This document shows, piece after piece, positions 7,786 to 33,019 of a stretch of 33,019 bases of DNA; positions within the stretch are counted from its first letter, which is position 1; each line of letters opens with the position of its first letter. Source of the DNA: a virus (Duplodnaviria > Caudoviricetes); the IMG/VR virus record IMGVR_UViG_3300035531_000018, positions 1 through 33,019 of that record; one strand, 5' to 3'. A program made the position numbers and the translations under genes. Below the pieces are notes generated by a model. It made no database searches, was not told the origin of the DNA, and saw only the letters and a program-made list of their open reading frames with translations.

Positions 7786-7825
7786 ATTCTTGGCTAAACT
7801 TGGGCATCTATCATTTTTTTTGCAT

Positions 7826-7853
7826 AAAAAAAAGCATCAGCCGAAGCCGATGC
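7826..7853 (-). terminator. Intrinsic terminator ending the late operon
   Basis: GCATCGGC-TTCG-GCTGATGC followed by T8. Confidence 0.92.
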
Positions 7854-7863
7854 CTTTTATTTT

Positions 7864-8115
7864 CTATCTATCTATACGCTCTAAAGTTGCGTTGTCGTAG
7901 CACATCATATAGTCGCGCCCGTCCTCGACAATGCAAATTAAGTCGCCGTACTCTCTTATGGTACCGAAGTTAGTCCAAGCAACAACAATAACCTCGCCAG
8001 TGTCTTTGTCAATAACGTTGTATCTGCCCTCATCATACACCTTCGGCTTGTTGCAACTGATCATCGCTAACAGTGTCAGTGTCAGCAACAACATTAACAT
8101 TATCTTCTTCATCAT
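7864..8115 (-). CDS. Putative lipoprotein
   Basis: MMKK, hydrophobic stretch and LAMISC lipobox-like signal; AGGAGG RBS lies inside the upstream gene. Confidence 0.75.
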   Translation of the reverse strand: MMKKIMLMLLLTLTLLAMISCNKPKVYDEGRYNVIDKDTGEVIVVAWTNFGTIREYGDLICIVEDGRDYMMCYDNATLERIDR

Positions 8116-8917
8116 CTGCCTCCTTAGTCTTCTTCAACTTATGGTTGCCTTGCTTGTAGTCAACGTAACTATCATATAATATGTTCTTTAACACAACCTT
8201 CTTTGGTATCTCATACTTAAACTTAAAGATTTGTGGGAAGTAAGTCATCAAGAACGTTATTATCAACCCTACGGATATAATAAGCAAACTCACGAACGCT
8301 GTTCCGACATTGTCTAACACGAACATCATGTTGACTGTCATTGAACCAAACAACACGCCAGTGAACGCTTTTCTTATTTGTTTCTTCAACTTACCCTCGT
8401 TCTTTTTCATTGAGGCTTGGTAGTCTACGTTACCGTTCTTCGTAACCTCGTAATATAAAGGTAAGTTAAACCCATATATATTGTGTCTAATAGGCTTCAA
8501 GCCGTCATACTCTTTGCGCTCTTCTTCAGTCAACTCATCGACTGTTTTGTCGCCTACGCTGAACAAGTAGTCTTCTTGCACTGTCACTAACTCGTGAACG
8601 TTCAAAGCCTTAACATATGCTCTAAAGTCTTTCATCTCATTATTAACATTCGTTATCAATTTATTATTCAACTTGTCAGCCAACTCGAACTCTTCGCTGT
8701 TAAGTCCGTTGCTCGTGCCTGAATCATATGCACCACTGACCATGTTCACATTAAGCCATATCACGAATAATATTTGTATCCATGTGTTGTGGTCTTTGAC
8801 AGTCGACTCAAGCGTACCATCGAACGACATGACCCTATAAGCGAAGTAACCAATCAAGGACAACACTATAATTATCCATACATAATTCTTGTACACTTTG
8901 TCCATGAACTTAGGCAT
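8033..8917 (-). CDS. Membrane protein (2 TM, soluble domain, 2 TM)
   Basis: 294 aa; hydrophobic segments near aa 12-30, 45-62, 184-201 and 206-227. Confidence 0.85.
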   Translation of the reverse strand: MPKFMDKVYKNYVWIIIVLSLIGYFAYRVMSFDGTLESTVKDHNTWIQILFVIWLNVNMVSGAYDSGTSNGLNSEEFELADKLNNKLITNVNNEMKDFRAYVKALNVHELVTVQEDYLFSVGDKTVDELTEEERKEYDGLKPIRHNIYGFNLPLYYEVTKNGNVDYQASMKKNEGKLKKQIRKAFTGVLFGSMTVNMMFVLDNVGTAFVSLLIISVGLIITFLMTYFPQIFKFKYEIPKKVVLKNILYDSYVDYKQGNHKLKKTKEADDEEDNVNVVADTDTVSDDQLQQAEGV

Positions 8918-9591
8918 TACTTGTCACCACCCAACGCATCTTTAAGACTTCGCATCAAGTCGCTCTCGACCTTGTCAGCCTCATCATCAGTAATAAAGTT
9001 CTCGTTCACAAAGTACTCTAGACAATATATAGCCCAACTGATAGTTGCGATTAAGAACACCATAAATAAATTACTCACTATTGTATCAATGACTAATAGC
9101 ACTAACGTACCAGTCACTAATGCAAGCAGTGTCGATATGCGTGGGTATTTCTTGTACCACTGCATCTTACCTTGCACAACCATCAACACAATGAACACGC
9201 CAACTGCATTAATAAGGAACGCCATAGGCAACTTATACCCTGTCGAGCGTTGCAACTCTAACGCCTTAATGTCTTTCAACTCTCCATCCTCAACGCCCCA
9301 GTAGCCATCATCGGTCTGGATAATAGTCTCCTCATCGTAATAGAACACTGTACGCCCATCCTCATAGGCGAAAACACCCTCGATAACAGCACTTTCCTTG
9401 TCAGTGTATATATAAGTGTCAGTTATGATTAAGTCCTCGCTATCCGCGTGTTTTATGGTGTAATCAGGGTTGATATTGAATAGTGTTGCTGACAAGAACA
9501 AATACAACGGCAACGGCACTGCTAAAGTGAATATGGTTATTATCTTATATATCAACTTTTGCTTATTCTTCTTGGCTGCCATATAAAGCAC
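8917..9591 (-). CDS. Membrane protein (1 TM, acidic beta-rich loop, 3 TM)
   Basis: 224 aa with four hydrophobic segments. Confidence 0.85.
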   Translation of the reverse strand: MLYMAAKKNKQKLIYKIITIFTLAVPLPLYLFLSATLFNINPDYTIKHADSEDLIITDTYIYTDKESAVIEGVFAYEDGRTVFYYDEETIIQTDDGYWGVEDGELKDIKALELQRSTGYKLPMAFLINAVGVFIVLMVVQGKMQWYKKYPRISTLLALVTGTLVLLVIDTIVSNLFMVFLIATISWAIYCLEYFVNENFITDDEADKVESDLMRSLKDALGGDK

Positions 9592-9988
9592 CCTCTATCT
9601 GCTCTTTGATAGTTTGCTCGATTAACGGATTGGATAATTTACTACCAAGATCAATTTTTAATAACTTAATTAACTCATCGTTTTGTGTCTTGACTTTAGC
9701 AAGTTCTTCTTGCAACGCTTGATAATGTCCAACCATCGCTAACCACTTGTCCATAGCAGTCTTATTCATATCTAATTGCTCATTCTTAGCCTTAGTCAAG
9801 AACGCCCTAACTGCTACTGCGCCTGAGCCCAACAAGAACGTTGATGAGCCACTGACTAATGCTGTGAGCCAATTAAGGTCTAATATATCTTGATACTCGA
9901 CTGGTAGCGATAAATACACAAACGATAATATTGAGTAGCCTAACAGTGTGTACACACCGATATTAAATAATTTACCTTTTAACTTCAT
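9563..9988 (-). CDS. Membrane protein (2 TM and C-terminal coiled coil), possibly holin-like
   Basis: 141 aa; two N-terminal hydrophobic helices then a heptad-rich tail. Confidence 0.8.
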   Translation of the reverse strand: MKLKGKLFNIGVYTLLGYSILSFVYLSLPVEYQDILDLNWLTALVSGSSTFLLGSGAVAVRAFLTKAKNEQLDMNKTAMDKWLAMVGHYQALQEELAKVKTQNDELIKLLKIDLGSKLSNPLIEQTIKEQIEGALYGSQEE

Positions 9989-10191
9989 CGTGAAATCAAC
10001 CTCCTAACAACTTCTACATTTTCCAACTTAGCCTTCTTTAATTCTTCCTTAGTCTCTCTAAGTTCACTCTCTAATTTAGAGATGGTCTCGTTCGTTTCTT
10101 TTTTGAATTTAACCAACTCTTTTGTCACTGGTAGTTCCTGAATGTCTACCCACTTGATCTCGGCACCTTTGCCTTTGATTCCAACTTTCAC
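9985..10191 (-). CDS. Small coiled-coil protein
   Basis: 68 aa; overlaps both neighbours by 4 nt. Confidence 0.7.
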   Translation of the reverse strand: MKVGIKGKGAEIKWVDIQELPVTKELVKFKKETNETISKLESELRETKEELKKAKLENVEVVRRLISR

Positions 10192-10466
10192 TTTCTTACC
10201 TCCTTAAAATCTTCTTTATAAATCAATCTATATATAATTACGGACAACGGCAATATAATAAGCGGTTTTTCTAACGCAAAAGGCGACCATAAAAATATTA
10301 AATAAGCCTTTGCAAAAGTAGATAACCAACTCGGCACAAAATCAATAAAAGCAATCGCATACCAAATGCCGTTAGTAATACACCAAATAACAAGAACGAT
10401 AGGTAACATTTTAGGGGTGAGATATGGTTTCACCCACCCCCACGTTACATTAAGAATTTTCTTCAT
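10188..10466 (-). CDS. Small hydrophobic membrane protein (holin candidate)
   Basis: 92 aa, 2-3 TM segments, charged C-terminus. Confidence 0.75.
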   Translation of the reverse strand: MKKILNVTWGWVKPYLTPKMLPIVLVIWCITNGIWYAIAFIDFVPSWLSTFAKAYLIFLWSPFALEKPLIILPLSVIIYRLIYKEDFKEVRK

Positions 10467-10584
10467 CTAACTTTTCTTGAACAGCCTCACGATAAGGTGT
10501 CGGCACTTGCTCAATGGTAATCTTGCCATTTTTAACTGACTGTGCTAATGACTTTACTAAAATACTTTCTTCAATTTTTGTCAT
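10450..10584 (-). CDS. 44-aa CD1375-like small protein (not in ORF track)
   Basis: MTKIEESILVKSLAQSVKNGKITIEQVPTPYREAVQEKL...; the G-x-x-T-I-E-Q-V-P-x-x-x-R-x-x-V pattern typically follows tail-fibre genes in Bacillota phages. Confidence 0.75.
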   Translation of the reverse strand: MTKIEESILVKSLAQSVKNGKITIEQVPTPYREAVQEKLDEENS

Positions 10585-15072: not shown

Positions 15073-17988
15073 CTATATTTCCTCCAATTCTACAATATAA
15101 TAATCATATGTCGCTGGCAACGTTCCATCTGTCACACGGATAATATCGCCCTCGAATAATGTAACACTTAATTGTGTCTCAATTTCTTCGATAGTCACAT
15201 TAGATGGTGTGCTGTCAGTAAATGTGTAATCATAGTTAGTATCTAATGTCGTGGCAAGCACTCTTTGAGTCATCCTATACATACTATTGAATAATGTCCT
15301 ATTATCAAACTCAACATTTCTGTTGATAATGCGTTTAATCACATAATCTGCTGTGAATGATGTTGAGTTACTAAAACTTGCACGCTCTACTTCTATCCAT
15401 TTGCTCCAAGCCACGCTGAACGATGTTAGGTTGCTGAAGTTAGCATCTTTGAAGTAGAAGTCTAAGTCTCTCTCGAATCTTGTCAATTTAAAGTTGAACT
15501 TAATCTCGCTCACTGAATTATTACCTGCTATGACTATCTCATCGCCATACGCTAGGCACCAGAACTCTATCGCCTCATCTAGGCTATCAAGCACAGTCAA
15601 TGTCTGCCCTGTCAAGTTAACCTGTCCACCACTCACTACTGTGTCAGTCGCCCTAACGTACTTGTCGAACACTGTATAGGCTGACAAGCCTTCATATAGT
15701 GTCAGTGTCGGCGCTGTCTCGAACTCTTTGATTAAGTTGTTGTACTTAGTGAACGCGTTACCTATCACTATGTCCTCATCCTCGCTATACACGACTAACT
15801 GGCTCGTGAACGCTAACGATGCATTGATATCTTTGTCTAGTCGATAGGTTTTGTTCTGCCAATAGTCCCCTGAGCCATTACGCACTCGCGGATAATACTT
15901 GCGACTTGCTGTGTCGTCTAAATAGTCGACCTCGTTCTCTAACGTGAACGACATAGTGAATAGACTAAAATCATCCTCGTTCACATAATACACTGGGTCT
16001 TTATACCAAGCATATGTGCCTCGGCCTGCATCACCAGTGAATATCATACCATTACCAGCAATGCGTGGGTCATCGAACGCGAAGTGTAACAATATCATGT
16101 TACCACTTCCTACCCCAACGACTGGCGCATCTATACGCCTACTGCTCGCCAAGATGTTCGCGTTAGTCAACGGCTTATTGTACGCGCTATCATAGTCTAA
16201 TATGTTGAGCGCTACTTTCTCGCCATCTGCTGTTAGTAATGATGAGTCCACTTTATCATCACCTTGATACGCCTCTATGTACTGTCTATATATAAAGTTC
16301 GATTGCACTGCCTTACCAGTGAACGCATATGCGCTCGGTTGCCTTGACACTGCATACTCTCTATCGGTGTTAGAGAAGCCCTTAGCCATATCGGCTATAC
16401 ACACAATATTGTTCGTGTCTATTTGCCACCTAACATCAATGATAAGCCACTCGCCTACATAGTCGCCTAGTTGCCAGCGCTCAGCCCAAGTGTTGAACGA
16501 CTGCGTAACGTTCTTGATCACGTTACCTATACGGTTGGCTAAGGCGTTGTTGTTCTCGATGTATCTACCTATATCAACAAATGAGTCTCGCTGGTTATTA
16601 AGTATTGTTGTCTTATTCAACGTACCAGCAGTGTACTTCTCAGCAACGAAGTCAATGTCTCTACGTGGTCTGTATTTAAAACGCGCTTCGATGTTTTCAG
16701 TGTTTTCATCAATATAAAATCTATTTCTCAAGTTCCTTAATGTAATTATCTCTAGCCGTTCAGCGAACGTTAAGGCTTTAAATATCGCTTTAGTCTCACT
16801 TGATGCTGGGCTGCCATCATCGTTCAATAAGTAGTTGTCTATCAAGTTATCCCATTCGTTCTCTAACGCTGAATAGACTGCGTATTGATTAGTTGCACTT
16901 CTTAAGTGATAAATGTTGTTAGGGAAGCCTAAAAACCCTGTAATTTGTGAATATAAGTTCTCAATGTATCGTCCCTGCGCATCGTACGATACACAATTCT
17001 CTTTAACTCTCTCAGGTGTGCCATCGCCTAACCATTCATTGAAGAAGTCATCACCAATCGACTTTAATGAATTGAATCGTTCAGTCTCTAACACATTACG
17101 GGTAATATCAATGTCAATAGACGCGCCTGCTTGCAAATAATAGCGCTCGCTACCCACTGCGCCTTCATAGTCAATGTAAGTGTTGACCTTTAACTCTTTA
17201 CGCACATACACCTTATCTATCGCCATAATAGGGCTGTCCAACTCGTATCTCAGCGCTGAGGTCTGGAACATTGTCCCCTCGTTGCGTGGCGTGACCCAGC
17301 CTGCCTTCGATGGGTACCATATATAACTCGACTCATCAACTGCGTTGCGTGACTTAGCCAGTACCTCGGTTGCGTAGTCTATGTCGTTGACTGTCGACTG
17401 CTCGCCTTCAGTTGATAGTGTCAGCGCACTACCTCTCTTGGTGTATAACTCGTGCGTGATTGTCCAAGTATCAGTCGCGCTGTCGTAAGTCGCCCTTGGT
17501 ATAGCGTTGATTGACCTAAATAAGTCATAGACTATCTCGGCCAGTGACCCGCTGTATTCTTTGTTAGGGACTTGCGTGTTGAACAAGTCATCATCCGTGT
17601 AATCGAACAAAAAATCTTGATACTCTTCTAACTCTCGCTTATAGATGTCTAGTATCTCCCTTATGGTATATGGCTCGCCATTTTTTAATGTGAACGCTCT
17701 ATCAACTGGGAACACTGTCTCTAACTTAAGCATACATTCGCCTAAGTTGATTTGGTGCTCATATAAATCATCTTTGAGTAGCAACGGCTCATCTGACTGC
17801 ACGACATATTGTTCGTAGTCGCCAACCTCACCTAACTTGACCACACTGTATGGCTCGTATCTCTCTGCTCTCGTGCTCACGACTGTTATCTTGCCGTAGT
17901 CAGCAACCTCTTTACGGTTACGCTCAGCGACTGCCTCGACAACATCGGTTAGCACATCATCTATAAATACACTAATCATAATACACAC
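15073..17988 (-). CDS. Putative baseplate hub / Tal-like tail-tip protein (971 aa)
   Basis: Position in the tail module; segments such as LAEIVYDLFRSINAIPRA and WQLGDYVGEWLIIDVRWQI resemble gp27/Tal-type hub elements. The start may be the Met at 17979. Confidence 0.6.
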   Translation of the reverse strand: MCIMISVFIDDVLTDVVEAVAERNRKEVADYGKITVVSTRAERYEPYSVVKLGEVGDYEQYVVQSDEPLLLKDDLYEHQINLGECMLKLETVFPVDRAFTLKNGEPYTIREILDIYKRELEEYQDFLFDYTDDDLFNTQVPNKEYSGSLAEIVYDLFRSINAIPRATYDSATDTWTITHELYTKRGSALTLSTEGEQSTVNDIDYATEVLAKSRNAVDESSYIWYPSKAGWVTPRNEGTMFQTSALRYELDSPIMAIDKVYVRKELKVNTYIDYEGAVGSERYYLQAGASIDIDITRNVLETERFNSLKSIGDDFFNEWLGDGTPERVKENCVSYDAQGRYIENLYSQITGFLGFPNNIYHLRSATNQYAVYSALENEWDNLIDNYLLNDDGSPASSETKAIFKALTFAERLEIITLRNLRNRFYIDENTENIEARFKYRPRRDIDFVAEKYTAGTLNKTTILNNQRDSFVDIGRYIENNNALANRIGNVIKNVTQSFNTWAERWQLGDYVGEWLIIDVRWQIDTNNIVCIADMAKGFSNTDREYAVSRQPSAYAFTGKAVQSNFIYRQYIEAYQGDDKVDSSLLTADGEKVALNILDYDSAYNKPLTNANILASSRRIDAPVVGVGSGNMILLHFAFDDPRIAGNGMIFTGDAGRGTYAWYKDPVYYVNEDDFSLFTMSFTLENEVDYLDDTASRKYYPRVRNGSGDYWQNKTYRLDKDINASLAFTSQLVVYSEDEDIVIGNAFTKYNNLIKEFETAPTLTLYEGLSAYTVFDKYVRATDTVVSGGQVNLTGQTLTVLDSLDEAIEFWCLAYGDEIVIAGNNSVSEIKFNFKLTRFERDLDFYFKDANFSNLTSFSVAWSKWIEVERASFSNSTSFTADYVIKRIINRNVEFDNRTLFNSMYRMTQRVLATTLDTNYDYTFTDSTPSNVTIEEIETQLSVTLFEGDIIRVTDGTLPATYDYYIVELEEI

Positions 17989-18406
17989 TACCTTTGCCTA
18001 TACTGACCCTACGCCCTCTTAACTTATTCTCCATCTCGGTTGCAACGTTGCGCCTGTATATCTCGCGTTGTCTCAATACCTCATCGACTGAGCCTTTGAT
18101 AGCAACACCTGCTATTGCTAATGGTCCACCCTTCGCTATCAGCAATGCATAACCCCCTGCCATCATAGCGCTATTGATTCTTGACTGCAACACCTCGTTA
18201 CCAGTTGTCTTGGCTATCTCGCTACGTGCAGCGCCTATGACTGCCTGCGCGACTAATGCACCGCCTGCTATGAGTGCAGCGTTGCGCCCTAGATCATGGC
18301 TTGATGAGGCTATCTCGTTGGTCGGTGATTGCGGTGACATAGGCGTGTCGCCAGTTATCTCCTTACGCTCATATATTGTATAATTGCCTCTATTGAAGAA
18401 TGCCAT
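17972..18406 (-). CDS. Ala/Gly-rich hydrophobic protein; candidate miniature tape-measure / ejection protein
   Basis: 144 aa, two Ala/Gly-rich hydrophobic helices, located in the tape-measure slot between tube-like and hub-like genes. Confidence 0.55.
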   Translation of the reverse strand: MAFFNRGNYTIYERKEITGDTPMSPQSPTNEIASSSHDLGRNAALIAGGALVAQAVIGAARSEIAKTTGNEVLQSRINSAMMAGGYALLIAKGGPLAIAGVAIKGSVDEVLRQREIYRRNVATEMENKLRGRRVSIGKGSVYYD

Positions 18407-18407
18407 A

Positions 18408-19244
18408 TCAAGTCACCACCTCCGCGAACTCTACGACTAACTTACGTACACTGTTACGCTTAGCCGACTCATTAGCCGACCGCACTATCACTGTGTCTTC
18501 GAAGTCGCCTAATACTTCGTGCGTCTCTTTAAGTGTATACGTTCCTTTAAGTGTCGCTCTACTTCTCGACTCGTTGAACAGCGCCACACACTTAGCGTTG
18601 GTTGGGTCGTAGTTGATAGTCAATGTCACCATCTTAACGCGCCCTGTCACTGTGTTGAAGTCGTTGTCGGTTGTTGCTTTCTTGTCGGCAGTGTAGAAGC
18701 GCCTAGTCGTGCTCACATCAGCGTTCACAACATCTAATTCTAAACCATCTAAGTACCAAGTGCTTGATTGACCGAACTCGCCGATACCTAACTCGGTTAA
18801 ATTAAAAGTCACACTCAATATCGCATACTGCGCTGTCTCGCCTAAGAATGTCCAACCTCTATATTTCGGATATGGGCTGACCTTGACCGAATACTTTGTA
18901 CCATCAACCGTGATGCTCGATCCGTTCATCGCTCGGCAGACTGACTGGATATTAGCATAGTCTAAGTCCGTTGTTGCATCGTATGCATCGCCGTTGATAG
19001 GTACTAGCATACCGACCTCAAGCAACCAATCGACTCGGTTGTTGTTCTCAACGAACGGCACATCCTCACTAGTCGTTAACGCTACTGGCCTGTACTTGAC
19101 CTCTTCATTGACTAACTTACCTTCAACAGGCTCATATACGGATAGCCTATCGGTCTCAAACCTGAATAAGAAGTTACCTTTATAAACCAACCCATCTGTG
19201 TTGCTATTTAATTGTTCGATAAAATAGTCGAATATCTTTTGCAT
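18408..19244 (-). CDS. Tail structural protein; possible tail terminator / tail tube fusion
   Basis: 278 aa, beta-rich, appears two-domain, follows the neck genes. Confidence 0.55.
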   Translation of the reverse strand: MQKIFDYFIEQLNSNTDGLVYKGNFLFRFETDRLSVYEPVEGKLVNEEVKYRPVALTTSEDVPFVENNNRVDWLLEVGMLVPINGDAYDATTDLDYANIQSVCRAMNGSSITVDGTKYSVKVSPYPKYRGWTFLGETAQYAILSVTFNLTELGIGEFGQSSTWYLDGLELDVVNADVSTTRRFYTADKKATTDNDFNTVTGRVKMVTLTINYDPTNAKCVALFNESRSRATLKGTYTLKETHEVLGDFEDTVIVRSANESAKRNSVRKLVVEFAEVVT

Positions 19245-32853: not shown

Positions 32854-32995
32854 ACACGACCACCTCATCAGGTTGCATCATTGTGTAGAACGTATCGCAC
32901 GCTAGATCGTAGTTCTTGTAGAACGTGCCATCTATCACGTAGCCACCTTTGACTTGGTGCATTGCTAAACCTTGGTCTGTTAATAAAACTAGCAT
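32843..32995 (-). CDS. 50-aa hypothetical protein (not in ORF track)
   Basis: MLVLLTDQGLAMHQVKGGYVIDGTFYKNYDLACDTFYTMMQPDEVVVYEH; spans the terminal repeat. Confidence 0.7.
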   Translation of the reverse strand: MLVLLTDQGLAMHQVKGGYVIDGTFYKNYDLACDTFYTMMQPDEVVVYEH

Positions 32996-32998
32996 AAT
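32873..32998. repeat. Direct terminal repeat, copy 2
   Basis: Identical to 1-126. Confidence 0.95.
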
Positions 32999-33019
32999 AA
33001 ATCACCAAAATATTTAATA

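What the first reader, a model, noticed from the sequence alone, without database searches (positions are those of the whole stretch)
7864..10466. Endolysin-free membrane-protein cassette in the lysis slot
Seen: after the tail fibre the late operon ends with six coupled genes: a 92-aa membrane protein, a 68-aa coiled coil, a 141-aa 2-TM protein, two 4-TM proteins (224 and 294 aa) and a lipoprotein. I recognise no amidase, peptidase, muramidase or cell-wall-binding motif here or elsewhere in an apparently complete genome. Known: tailed phages of walled bacteria almost always encode a holin and an endolysin; 4-TM proteins of 220-290 aa are larger than typical holins. Inference: an undescribed multi-component membrane-disruption or non-lytic release system for a wall-less host. 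This is the best candidate for a new system in the window.
Basis: partly seen in the sequence, partly recalled or inferred. Interest (0 to 1): 0.85.

Follow-up and report, generated by a model that had tools for sequence, protein, structure and literature searches.

The report
Endolysin-free phage membrane exit module
A complete phage genome with no recognisable cell-wall-cutting enzyme carries, where lysis genes normally sit, a fixed block of four genes of no known family (three predicted membrane proteins and a small coil), which likely lets tailed phages break out of bacteria that have no cell wall.

Summary
Confirmed and refined. The six ORFs are real and overlap head to tail. No wall-hydrolase family was found in any of 115 ORFs of this circular-assembled genome. 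The conserved unit is four genes, not six: 68-aa coil, 141, 224 and 294 aa. Across 64 loci, every junction that could be seen keeps this order (58 of 58, 50 of 50, 44 of 44). The 92-aa protein (16 of 35 loci) and the lipoprotein (10 of 51) are accessory. None of the four matches Pfam, PHROGs or a solved fold. CRISPR spacers (7 of 31) tie a sister clade to a 1-Mb genome with no MraY or MurG found. A close relative (capsid 93% identical) has the block swapped, with mapped breakpoints, for a different three-gene membrane block of similar layout, again with no lysin found. Best reading (0.55): a late membrane complex that breaches or buds the single membrane of a wall-less host. Main rival (0.2): a DNA-entry device, since these phages have very short tape-measure-position genes. 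Function, complex formation and this phage's own host are untested.

The parts
10450..10584 (-). 44-aa small ORF after the tail fibre (XkdX-like position; that name is recalled, not from a call)
   Evidence: PHROG 1382 E 1.7e-9, unknown function; 5 profile members
10188..10466 (-). 92-aa small membrane protein, accessory; holin-sized
   Evidence: no Pfam or PHROG hit; next to the core in 16 of 35 loci with sequence there; an early-region copy in L010 and L062; kept in G955
9985..10191 (-). 68-aa soluble protein: short N-terminal beta-like part plus predicted coil; core gene 1
   Evidence: a 64-128-aa ORF (some cut by contig ends) sits directly upstream of the 141-aa gene in 44 of 44 loci, overlap 4-16 nt; only 11 were joined by profile search, the rest share a C-terminal motif by eye
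9563..9988 (-). 141-aa protein: predicted two TM helices (second glycine-rich) plus cytoplasmic coil ending in a conserved K-L-S-N-P-L motif; core gene 2
   Evidence: alignment A3; 44 homologues; upstream of the 224-aa gene in 50 of 50 loci; charge profile
8917..9591 (-). 224-aa protein (start may be ATG at 9582): TM1, acidic outward beta domain (residues 44-107), three more TM helices; core gene 3
   Evidence: model pLDDT 79.6; 106 representatives at 50% identity; upstream of the 294-aa gene in 58 of 58 loci; no fold match
8033..8917 (-). 294-aa protein: 2 TM, about 120-aa helical cytoplasmic domain, 2 TM, basic tail; core gene 4 and the most conserved
   Evidence: 310 homologues; model pLDDT 70.3, pTM 0.56; five full-length matches to uncharacterised viral models, E 2.5e-5 to 4.8e-4; no PDB match
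7864..8115 (-). 83-aa lipoprotein-like ORF overlapping the variable tail of the 294-aa gene; accessory
   Evidence: signal-like N-terminus ending in Cys; in 10 of 51 loci with a downstream ORF
7822..7860 (-). intrinsic-terminator-like hairpin with UUCG loop and U-run closing the late operon
   Evidence: -18 kcal/mol, z -4.78, 0 of 200 shuffles as stable
7897..10063 (-). segment replaced as a block in close relative G955 (3' end of the 68-aa gene through most of the lipoprotein gene)
   Evidence: DNA similarity to G955 stops at 10064 and resumes at 7896; replacement ORFs of 331, 164 and 342 aa
17972..18406 (-). 144-aa gene in the tape-measure position; context only, suggests a very short tail
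   Evidence: genes in this position are 145-187 aa in G001, G002, G004, G005, L011, L042 and G955; the assignment is by position only

Best explanation
The four core genes form a fixed, overlapping block in the late operon of phages with no detectable endolysin, and likely encode a host-membrane complex that breaches the single membrane of a wall-less bacterium to release progeny. Predicted anatomy: the 294-aa four-TM protein, with its conserved cytoplasmic domain, is the oligomerising core of the lesion. The 224-aa protein sits beside it with a beta domain facing outward. The 141-aa protein adds a glycine-rich TM and a cytoplasmic coil that would pair with the soluble 68-aa coil as scaffold or timer. 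With no peptidoglycan, a membrane breach would be enough for lysis, so no enzyme is needed. Whether exit is by rupture or by slow budding-like release is open. Shown: gene content, order, conservation, block exchange, absence of HMM-detectable lysins, spacer link for a sister clade. Inferred: topology, complex formation, oligomer, exit function, host of this phage.
For: Position after the tail fibre, coupled by overlaps and closed by a hairpin. No lysin family in 115 window ORFs, in 44 ORFs of complete G002 and 24 of G001, or in 39 ORFs of G955 (20 also against PHROGs). Order kept at 58 of 58, 50 of 50 and 44 of 44 junctions in 64 loci, across phages with different early regions. The 294-aa protein has 310 homologues by single-sequence search against 12 for the tail-module 278-aa protein. 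Basic inner loops and acidic outer loops fit host-membrane insertion. G955 fills the same slot with another block: a signal-bearing TM-plus-coil protein, a small 4-TM and a large protein of the same 2-TM/domain/2-TM layout. A Cas9-type array in G508 has 7 of 31 spacers matching cassette-bearing phage loci, against 0 in 20 shuffled rounds. G508 has no MraY or MurG match and one weak Mur-ligase match. G006, which holds a cassette contig, has no PBP, MraY, MurG or Mur-ligase match. TGA ends 10 of 32 genes, so the host is not a code-4 mycoplasma. PMC13375369 (passages) reports budding-like release for the short-tailed Acholeplasma phage L3, listed without a sequence.
Against: No experiment and no informative fold (best VIA Z 7.4 and 6.2; Foldseek PDB none at E 0.001). 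In the L009 clade the block lies between two large tail-module genes, not at the operon end. In G955 the tail genes also diverge (37-56% against 69-93% for head genes), so the swap could track the tail. Three large membrane proteins are more than simple rupture should need (inference). No spacer matches this window, and a class-wide sample of 399 genomes gave no spacer-like match. G508 has one PBP, though on a 2.4-kb contig of 46% GC against 33-37% for two other stretches. Ten of 151 genomes of that family have MurG-like matches at E 1.8e-26 or better, all below the cut-off. One cassette contig is in a gammaproteobacterial bin that has PBPs and MraY. One homologue (P0069) is on record on a 5.6-Mb contig. 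The genomes are incomplete bins.
Confidence: 0.55

Rival explanations
1. The block is a DNA-entry device: virion-borne proteins that would form a channel across the host membrane and stand in for the very short tape measure.
For: Tape-measure-position genes are only 144-187 aa in eight genomes or loci inspected. The block sits inside the tail module in the L009 clade. The G955 swap goes with diverged tail genes.
Against: Multi-pass topology with positive-inside bias and a signal-peptide-like N-terminus on the G955 331-aa protein (by eye) fit insertion through the host secretion machinery. Known ejection proteins are soluble until release (recalled). This reading would also leave the genome with only the accessory 92-aa protein for exit, and it is next to the core in only 16 of 35 loci.
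Confidence: 0.2
2. The block is a late membrane scaffold or host-control device (anchoring particle assembly at the membrane, excluding superinfection, or blocking a membrane-acting defence), and exit is done by a small holin-like protein alone.
For: The 92-aa protein is holin-sized and survives the G955 swap. An overlapping lipoprotein is present in 10 of 51 loci. Block exchange between close relatives is typical of host-interaction modules (recalled).
Against: The core has no own promoter signal above chance (11 found, 11.6 expected) and is coupled to late genes. Its order never varies. The 92-aa gene is not at this place in 19 of 35 loci, although two of those hold distant look-alikes.
Confidence: 0.15
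3. The host has a wall, the endolysin is too divergent to detect, and these are unusual holin or accessory lysis genes.
For: Many ORFs have no family, including the 971-aa and 1354-aa tail proteins. A cassette contig lies in a walled gammaproteobacterial bin. P0069 is on a 5.6-Mb contig. PMC10868615 (passages) predicts a mix of walled and wall-less species in these Bacilli orders.
Against: No lysin family in four complete or near-complete genomes, as far as scanned. No soluble enzyme-sized ORF lies in the slot in the loci listed. The spacer-linked genome lacks MraY and MurG matches. The gammaproteobacterial contig is 2.7 kb at coverage 0.7 by its own title.
Confidence: 0.1

Closest known systems
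Holin-endolysin lysis cassettes of tailed phages of Bacillota, such as PBSX xhlA-xhlB-xlyA (recalled)
   Same: Same late-operon slot after the tail fibre, overlapping small membrane genes, terminator-like hairpin at the end.
   Different: No endolysin family found. No holin family matched by any of the six window proteins; single relatives gave only scattered weak holin hits. The two main proteins are 224 and 294 aa with folded extramembrane domains.
Acholeplasma phage L3 (MV-L3) and SpV3-type short-tailed Mollicutes phages (PMC13375369, passages read)
   Same: Tailed dsDNA phages of wall-less hosts; L3 has a 39-kb circularly permuted genome, a tail of about 10 x 20 nm and budding-like release. 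This phage is 33 kb with a very short tape-measure-position gene.
   Different: L3 is listed without an accession and no exit genes appear in the passages read, so no sequence comparison is possible. Kinship is untested.
Bacterial bestrophin (KpBest; PF25539)
   Same: Same order of elements: two TM, cytoplasmic helical domain, two TM. It tops the non-significant Foldseek list for the 294-aa model (E 0.46).
   Different: TM-scores only 0.11-0.22. Profile-profile probability 0.15% against six bestrophins. No Pfam hit.
Overlapped two-component spanins, Rz/Rz1 type (recalled)
   Same: A lipoprotein gene starts 65-113 nt inside the 3' end of the upstream membrane gene.
   Different: The upstream gene has four predicted TMs and no outward coil, the lipoprotein is in only 10 of 51 loci, and the likely host has one membrane.
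Five uncharacterised viral proteins in BFVD (A0A8S5M2A9, A0A2Z4GU85, A0A345BNV1, A0A8S5S6F4, A0A8S5M9I1)
   Same: Full-length structural matches to the 294-aa model: 293-307 aa, E 2.5e-5 to 4.8e-4, TM 0.37-0.56, well above the next row at E 0.17.
   Different: 12-15% identity and no function. Their gene neighbourhoods and hosts could not be retrieved.

Membership tests
Holin-endolysin cassette | A peptidoglycan hydrolase gene in the genome | tested here: not met
   No such Pfam family in 115 ORFs, none in PHROGs for 48. Sequence profiles only.
Holin-endolysin cassette | A hydrolase too divergent for HMMs, detectable by fold | not tested
Holin-endolysin cassette | A protein of a known holin family | tested here: inconclusive
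   No hit for the six window proteins; scattered weak hits in 1-3 relatives. Holins are often missed by profiles (recalled).
Holin-endolysin cassette | Timed membrane permeabilisation | not testable with these tools
   Needs expression assays.
Bestrophin channels | Sequence-profile homology to PF25539 | tested here: not met
   hhalign probability 0.15%, E 0.4 (an earlier run, held two spurious rows); no Pfam hit. Both profiles are shallow.
Bestrophin channels | Bestrophin fold | tested here: inconclusive
   Foldseek E 0.46 and above, TM 0.11-0.22; bestrhodopsin Z 6.0, 78 aligned, rmsd 4.3; model pTM only 0.56.
Bestrophin channels | Pentameric channel | not tested
Two-component spanin | Lipoprotein gene overlapped with an inner-membrane gene and always co-occurring | tested here: not met
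   Overlap present, co-occurrence 10 of 51.
Phage of a peptidoglycan-deficient host | Host link to a genome lacking mur, mraY and PBP genes | tested here: inconclusive
   Met for the L009 sister clade through G508 spacers, apart from one PBP on a GC-discordant contig; no link for this window.

The most novel reading that the evidence does not exclude
This is the first gene-level view of how tailed phages leave wall-less bacteria: a dedicated, exchangeable four-part membrane machine built on a new 4-TM family, with at least two alleles and distant structural relatives in other phages, which ruptures or buds the host membrane without any enzyme and would explain the budding-like release long reported for L3-type phages.
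Probability: 0.45. Interest if true: 0.9.

Novelty: categorically new. Interest (0 to 1): 0.74.

Why it matters
Lysis by tailed phages is understood almost entirely as holin plus endolysin (recalled). How tailed phages exit Mollicutes-like cells is described only by morphology in the review passages read (PMC13375369). This block names four candidate genes, a natural swap allele and a spacer-linked host group, so the question becomes testable in a laboratory Acholeplasma strain or in L-forms. If the entry rival is right instead, it would be a new DNA-delivery device for near-tailless phages. Either way it adds new membrane-protein families.

Tried and rejected
Bestrophin: rejected by profile, inconclusive by fold. 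MotA/ZorA, claudin-like and pore-toxin folds were considered from topology (recalled); none reached significance, and no MotA, ZorA or claudin row was listed. Solved-structure sequence searches gave best E 0.67 and 0.1. ESM Atlas gave only unnamed clusters at 0.88-0.89 and no named hit. Member-wise PHROG and Pfam scans gave no consistent family; the top was MFS_1 in 16 of 85, best E 5e-4. Homology between the G955 block and the window block was tested and not shown: hhalign E 0.02-0.3, and local shuffles reached the real score in 16, 102 and 101 of 300; a non-corresponding pair (294-aa profile against the 331-aa protein) beat all shuffles, so the test is unreliable. No relatives in 50,697 named phage records. 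MT836120.1, the best capsid match, is a long-tailed phage fragment without the block. The 294-aa profile found 1 full-length match in 401 genomes of G006's order; the 342-aa protein gave 3 marginal ones. Literature: eight full-text searches listed no paper that, by title or abstract start, describes this block; five returned nothing; subscription papers are not covered. Earlier-finding look-ups by place and sequence were empty. Four duplicate loci (L028, L049, L066, L071) and L001 were dropped before counting; the 64 loci are not independent (27 distinct at about 90% among 46 complete 294-aa genes).

Full report
OBSERVATION. The window is one 33,019-base virus record. Its first 126 bases recur at 32873-32998, so the assembly closes on itself. 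It encodes a tailed phage: terminase, SPP1-type portal, head protein, primase and helicase. The six ORFs are present as described, on the minus strand after the 1354-aa tail fibre, with overlaps of 4, 4, 29, 1 and 83 nt. A 44-aa ORF precedes them and a strong hairpin with a U-run follows. None of the six matches Pfam or PHROGs. All 114 ORFs of at least 50 aa and the 44-aa ORF were scanned against Pfam with no wall-hydrolase or wall-binding hit. This is a profile result; no fold search for a divergent lysin was run.

CONSERVATION. The 294-aa protein has 310 homologues and the 224-aa protein 106 representatives at 50% identity. I collected 10 viral, 2 genome-bin and 55 metagenome loci, dropped four duplicates and added the window, giving 64. 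Wherever the contig reaches far enough, the 224-aa gene precedes the 294-aa gene (58 of 58), the 141-aa gene precedes that (50 of 50), and a small coil gene precedes that (44 of 44). Only 11 of the coil genes were linked by profile; the rest share a C-terminal motif by eye. The 92-aa gene is adjacent in 16 of 35 loci and the lipoprotein in 10 of 51. The system is therefore four genes with two passengers. The loci are not independent: 27 of 46 complete 294-aa genes are distinct at about 90%. The block follows the tail fibre in most clades but lies between two large tail-module genes in the L009 clade.

ANATOMY (predicted). The 294-aa model (pLDDT 70, pTM 0.56) has two helices, a helical domain of about 120 residues, two more helices and a long basic tail; most invariant residues lie in the middle domain. 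The 224-aa model (pLDDT 80) has one helix, a confident beta domain and three more helices. Charge counts over the alignments put the basic termini and loops inside and the acidic beta domain and short loops outside. The 141-aa protein has two hydrophobic segments, the second glycine-rich, and a coil ending in a conserved motif. A plain hydropathy scan called fewer segments. No solved fold matched. Bestrophins led the non-significant list but failed a profile test. Five uncharacterised viral models matched the 294-aa model over its full length at 12-15% identity, so the family is probably wider than sequence search shows.

A NATURAL SWAP. G955 (35 kb, 90% complete) has a capsid protein 93% and a terminase 89% identical to the window's but no match to the 294-aa profile. 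It keeps the 44-aa and 92-aa genes and the start of the coil gene. DNA similarity then stops at window 10064 and resumes at 7896. Between lie a 331-aa signal/TM/coil protein, a 164-aa four-TM protein and a 342-aa protein with the layout of the 294-aa one. Homology to the window's genes is not shown. No lysin family was found in 39 of its ORFs. The three membrane genes thus move as one unit, and their slot is refilled by membrane proteins, not by an enzyme. G955's tail genes are also more diverged (37-56%), which keeps the entry reading alive.

HOST. One homologue of 120 listed is named from an Acholeplasmataceae bin, and one locus lies in 'Tenericutes bacterium ADurb.Bin087'; binning is weak evidence. 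Searching 401 genomes of that bin's family with L009 DNA found G508, whose Cas9-type array has 7 of 31 spacers matching cassette-bearing phage loci over 25-30 of 30 bases, against 0 in 20 shuffled rounds. G508 gave no MraY or MurG match and one weak Mur-ligase match that looks like FolC by eye; its one PBP is on a 2.4-kb contig of discordant GC. None of 151 family genomes passed the MurG cut-off, though ten had strong sub-threshold matches. A further family bin, G516, holds the 141-224-294 genes. TGA is a stop in 10 of 32 window genes. Against: a 2.7-kb cassette contig in a walled gammaproteobacterial bin, P0069 on a 5.6-Mb contig, and no spacer for this window itself. PMC10868615 (passages) reports peptidoglycan loss in Izemoplasmatales and in some RFN20 families, and a mix of states in these orders; the tools did not name G508's family.

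MECHANISM. I commit to an exit module (0.55). The four products would be made late in fixed ratio, insert in the host's only membrane and assemble; the 294-aa protein would form the lesion or neck, the 224-aa protein brace it from outside, and the two coils scaffold or time it from inside. Without a wall no enzyme is needed. PMC13375369 (passages) describes budding-like, slowly lethal release for the short-tailed Acholeplasma phage L3, which has no listed sequence; this block is a candidate for that behaviour, but kinship with L3 is untested. Rivals are a DNA-entry channel replacing the very short tape measure (0.2), a scaffold or exclusion device with the 92-aa protein as sole holin (0.15), and a hidden endolysin in a walled host (0.1).

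NOVELTY. Eight full-text searches listed no description of this block; I read passages of three papers (PMC13375369, PMC10868615, PMC8440029) and only listings of the rest, and no supplements. An earlier scan note (e1-5955051) proposes an unrelated TatC-based endolysin-free block; it is an untested parallel, not support. The block works, by my reading, like a lysis cassette, but fails the endolysin test for membership, and none of its four proteins belongs to a known family. Verdict: real, conserved, unexplained; categorically new if the function holds; interest 0.74.

Noticed in passing
L125:3865-6589 (G955): Alternative block in the same slot: hybrid 82-aa coil, 331-aa signal/TM/coil protein, 164-aa 4-TM, 342-aa protein of the 294-aa layout. 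No family; homology to the window block not shown. A second record, L127, has an identical 342-aa gene.
   Followed up: partly
window 17972-19244: Tape-measure-position gene of only 144 aa, and a 278-aa gene whose two halves look by eye like a tail terminator fused to a tube or distal-tail domain: a possible minimal-tail design.
   Followed up: no
L017:14410-16015 (G002); also L004, L006, L007, L031: Reverse transcriptase (RVT_1) with a 103-117-aa neighbour directly upstream of the block, probably a diversity-generating retroelement; template and target repeats not checked.
   Followed up: no
L116 (G508:C73): Cas9, Cas1, Cas2, Csn2 and a 36-bp-repeat array with at least 31 spacers, 7 against one phage clade.
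   Followed up: yes
L037:1652-2650: Its 332-aa protein is identical to P0069, which is on record on a 5.6-Mb contig, far larger than the other candidate host genomes. Unexplained.
   Followed up: partly
L010:11826-12167 and L062:8704-9045: A second or relocated copy of the 92-aa membrane gene family in the early region.
   Followed up: no
L042:7955-8563: A 202-aa ORF that looks by eye like an HNH-type homing endonuclease, inserted between the small membrane gene and the core.
   Followed up: no
L044 and L072: The 141-aa and 224-aa homologues are each split in two ORFs; frameshift or assembly error not checked.
   Followed up: no
window 32999-33019: 21 bases beyond the 126-bp terminal repeat that do not match the start; probably an assembly overhang.
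   Followed up: partly
window, whole: All main genes are on one strand and no integrase family was found, in line with only two genome bins holding the block in the scan of species genomes.
   Followed up: partly
L020:138-920 (G005): 260-aa ORF before the terminase genes that looks by eye like S-adenosylmethionine synthetase.
   Followed up: no
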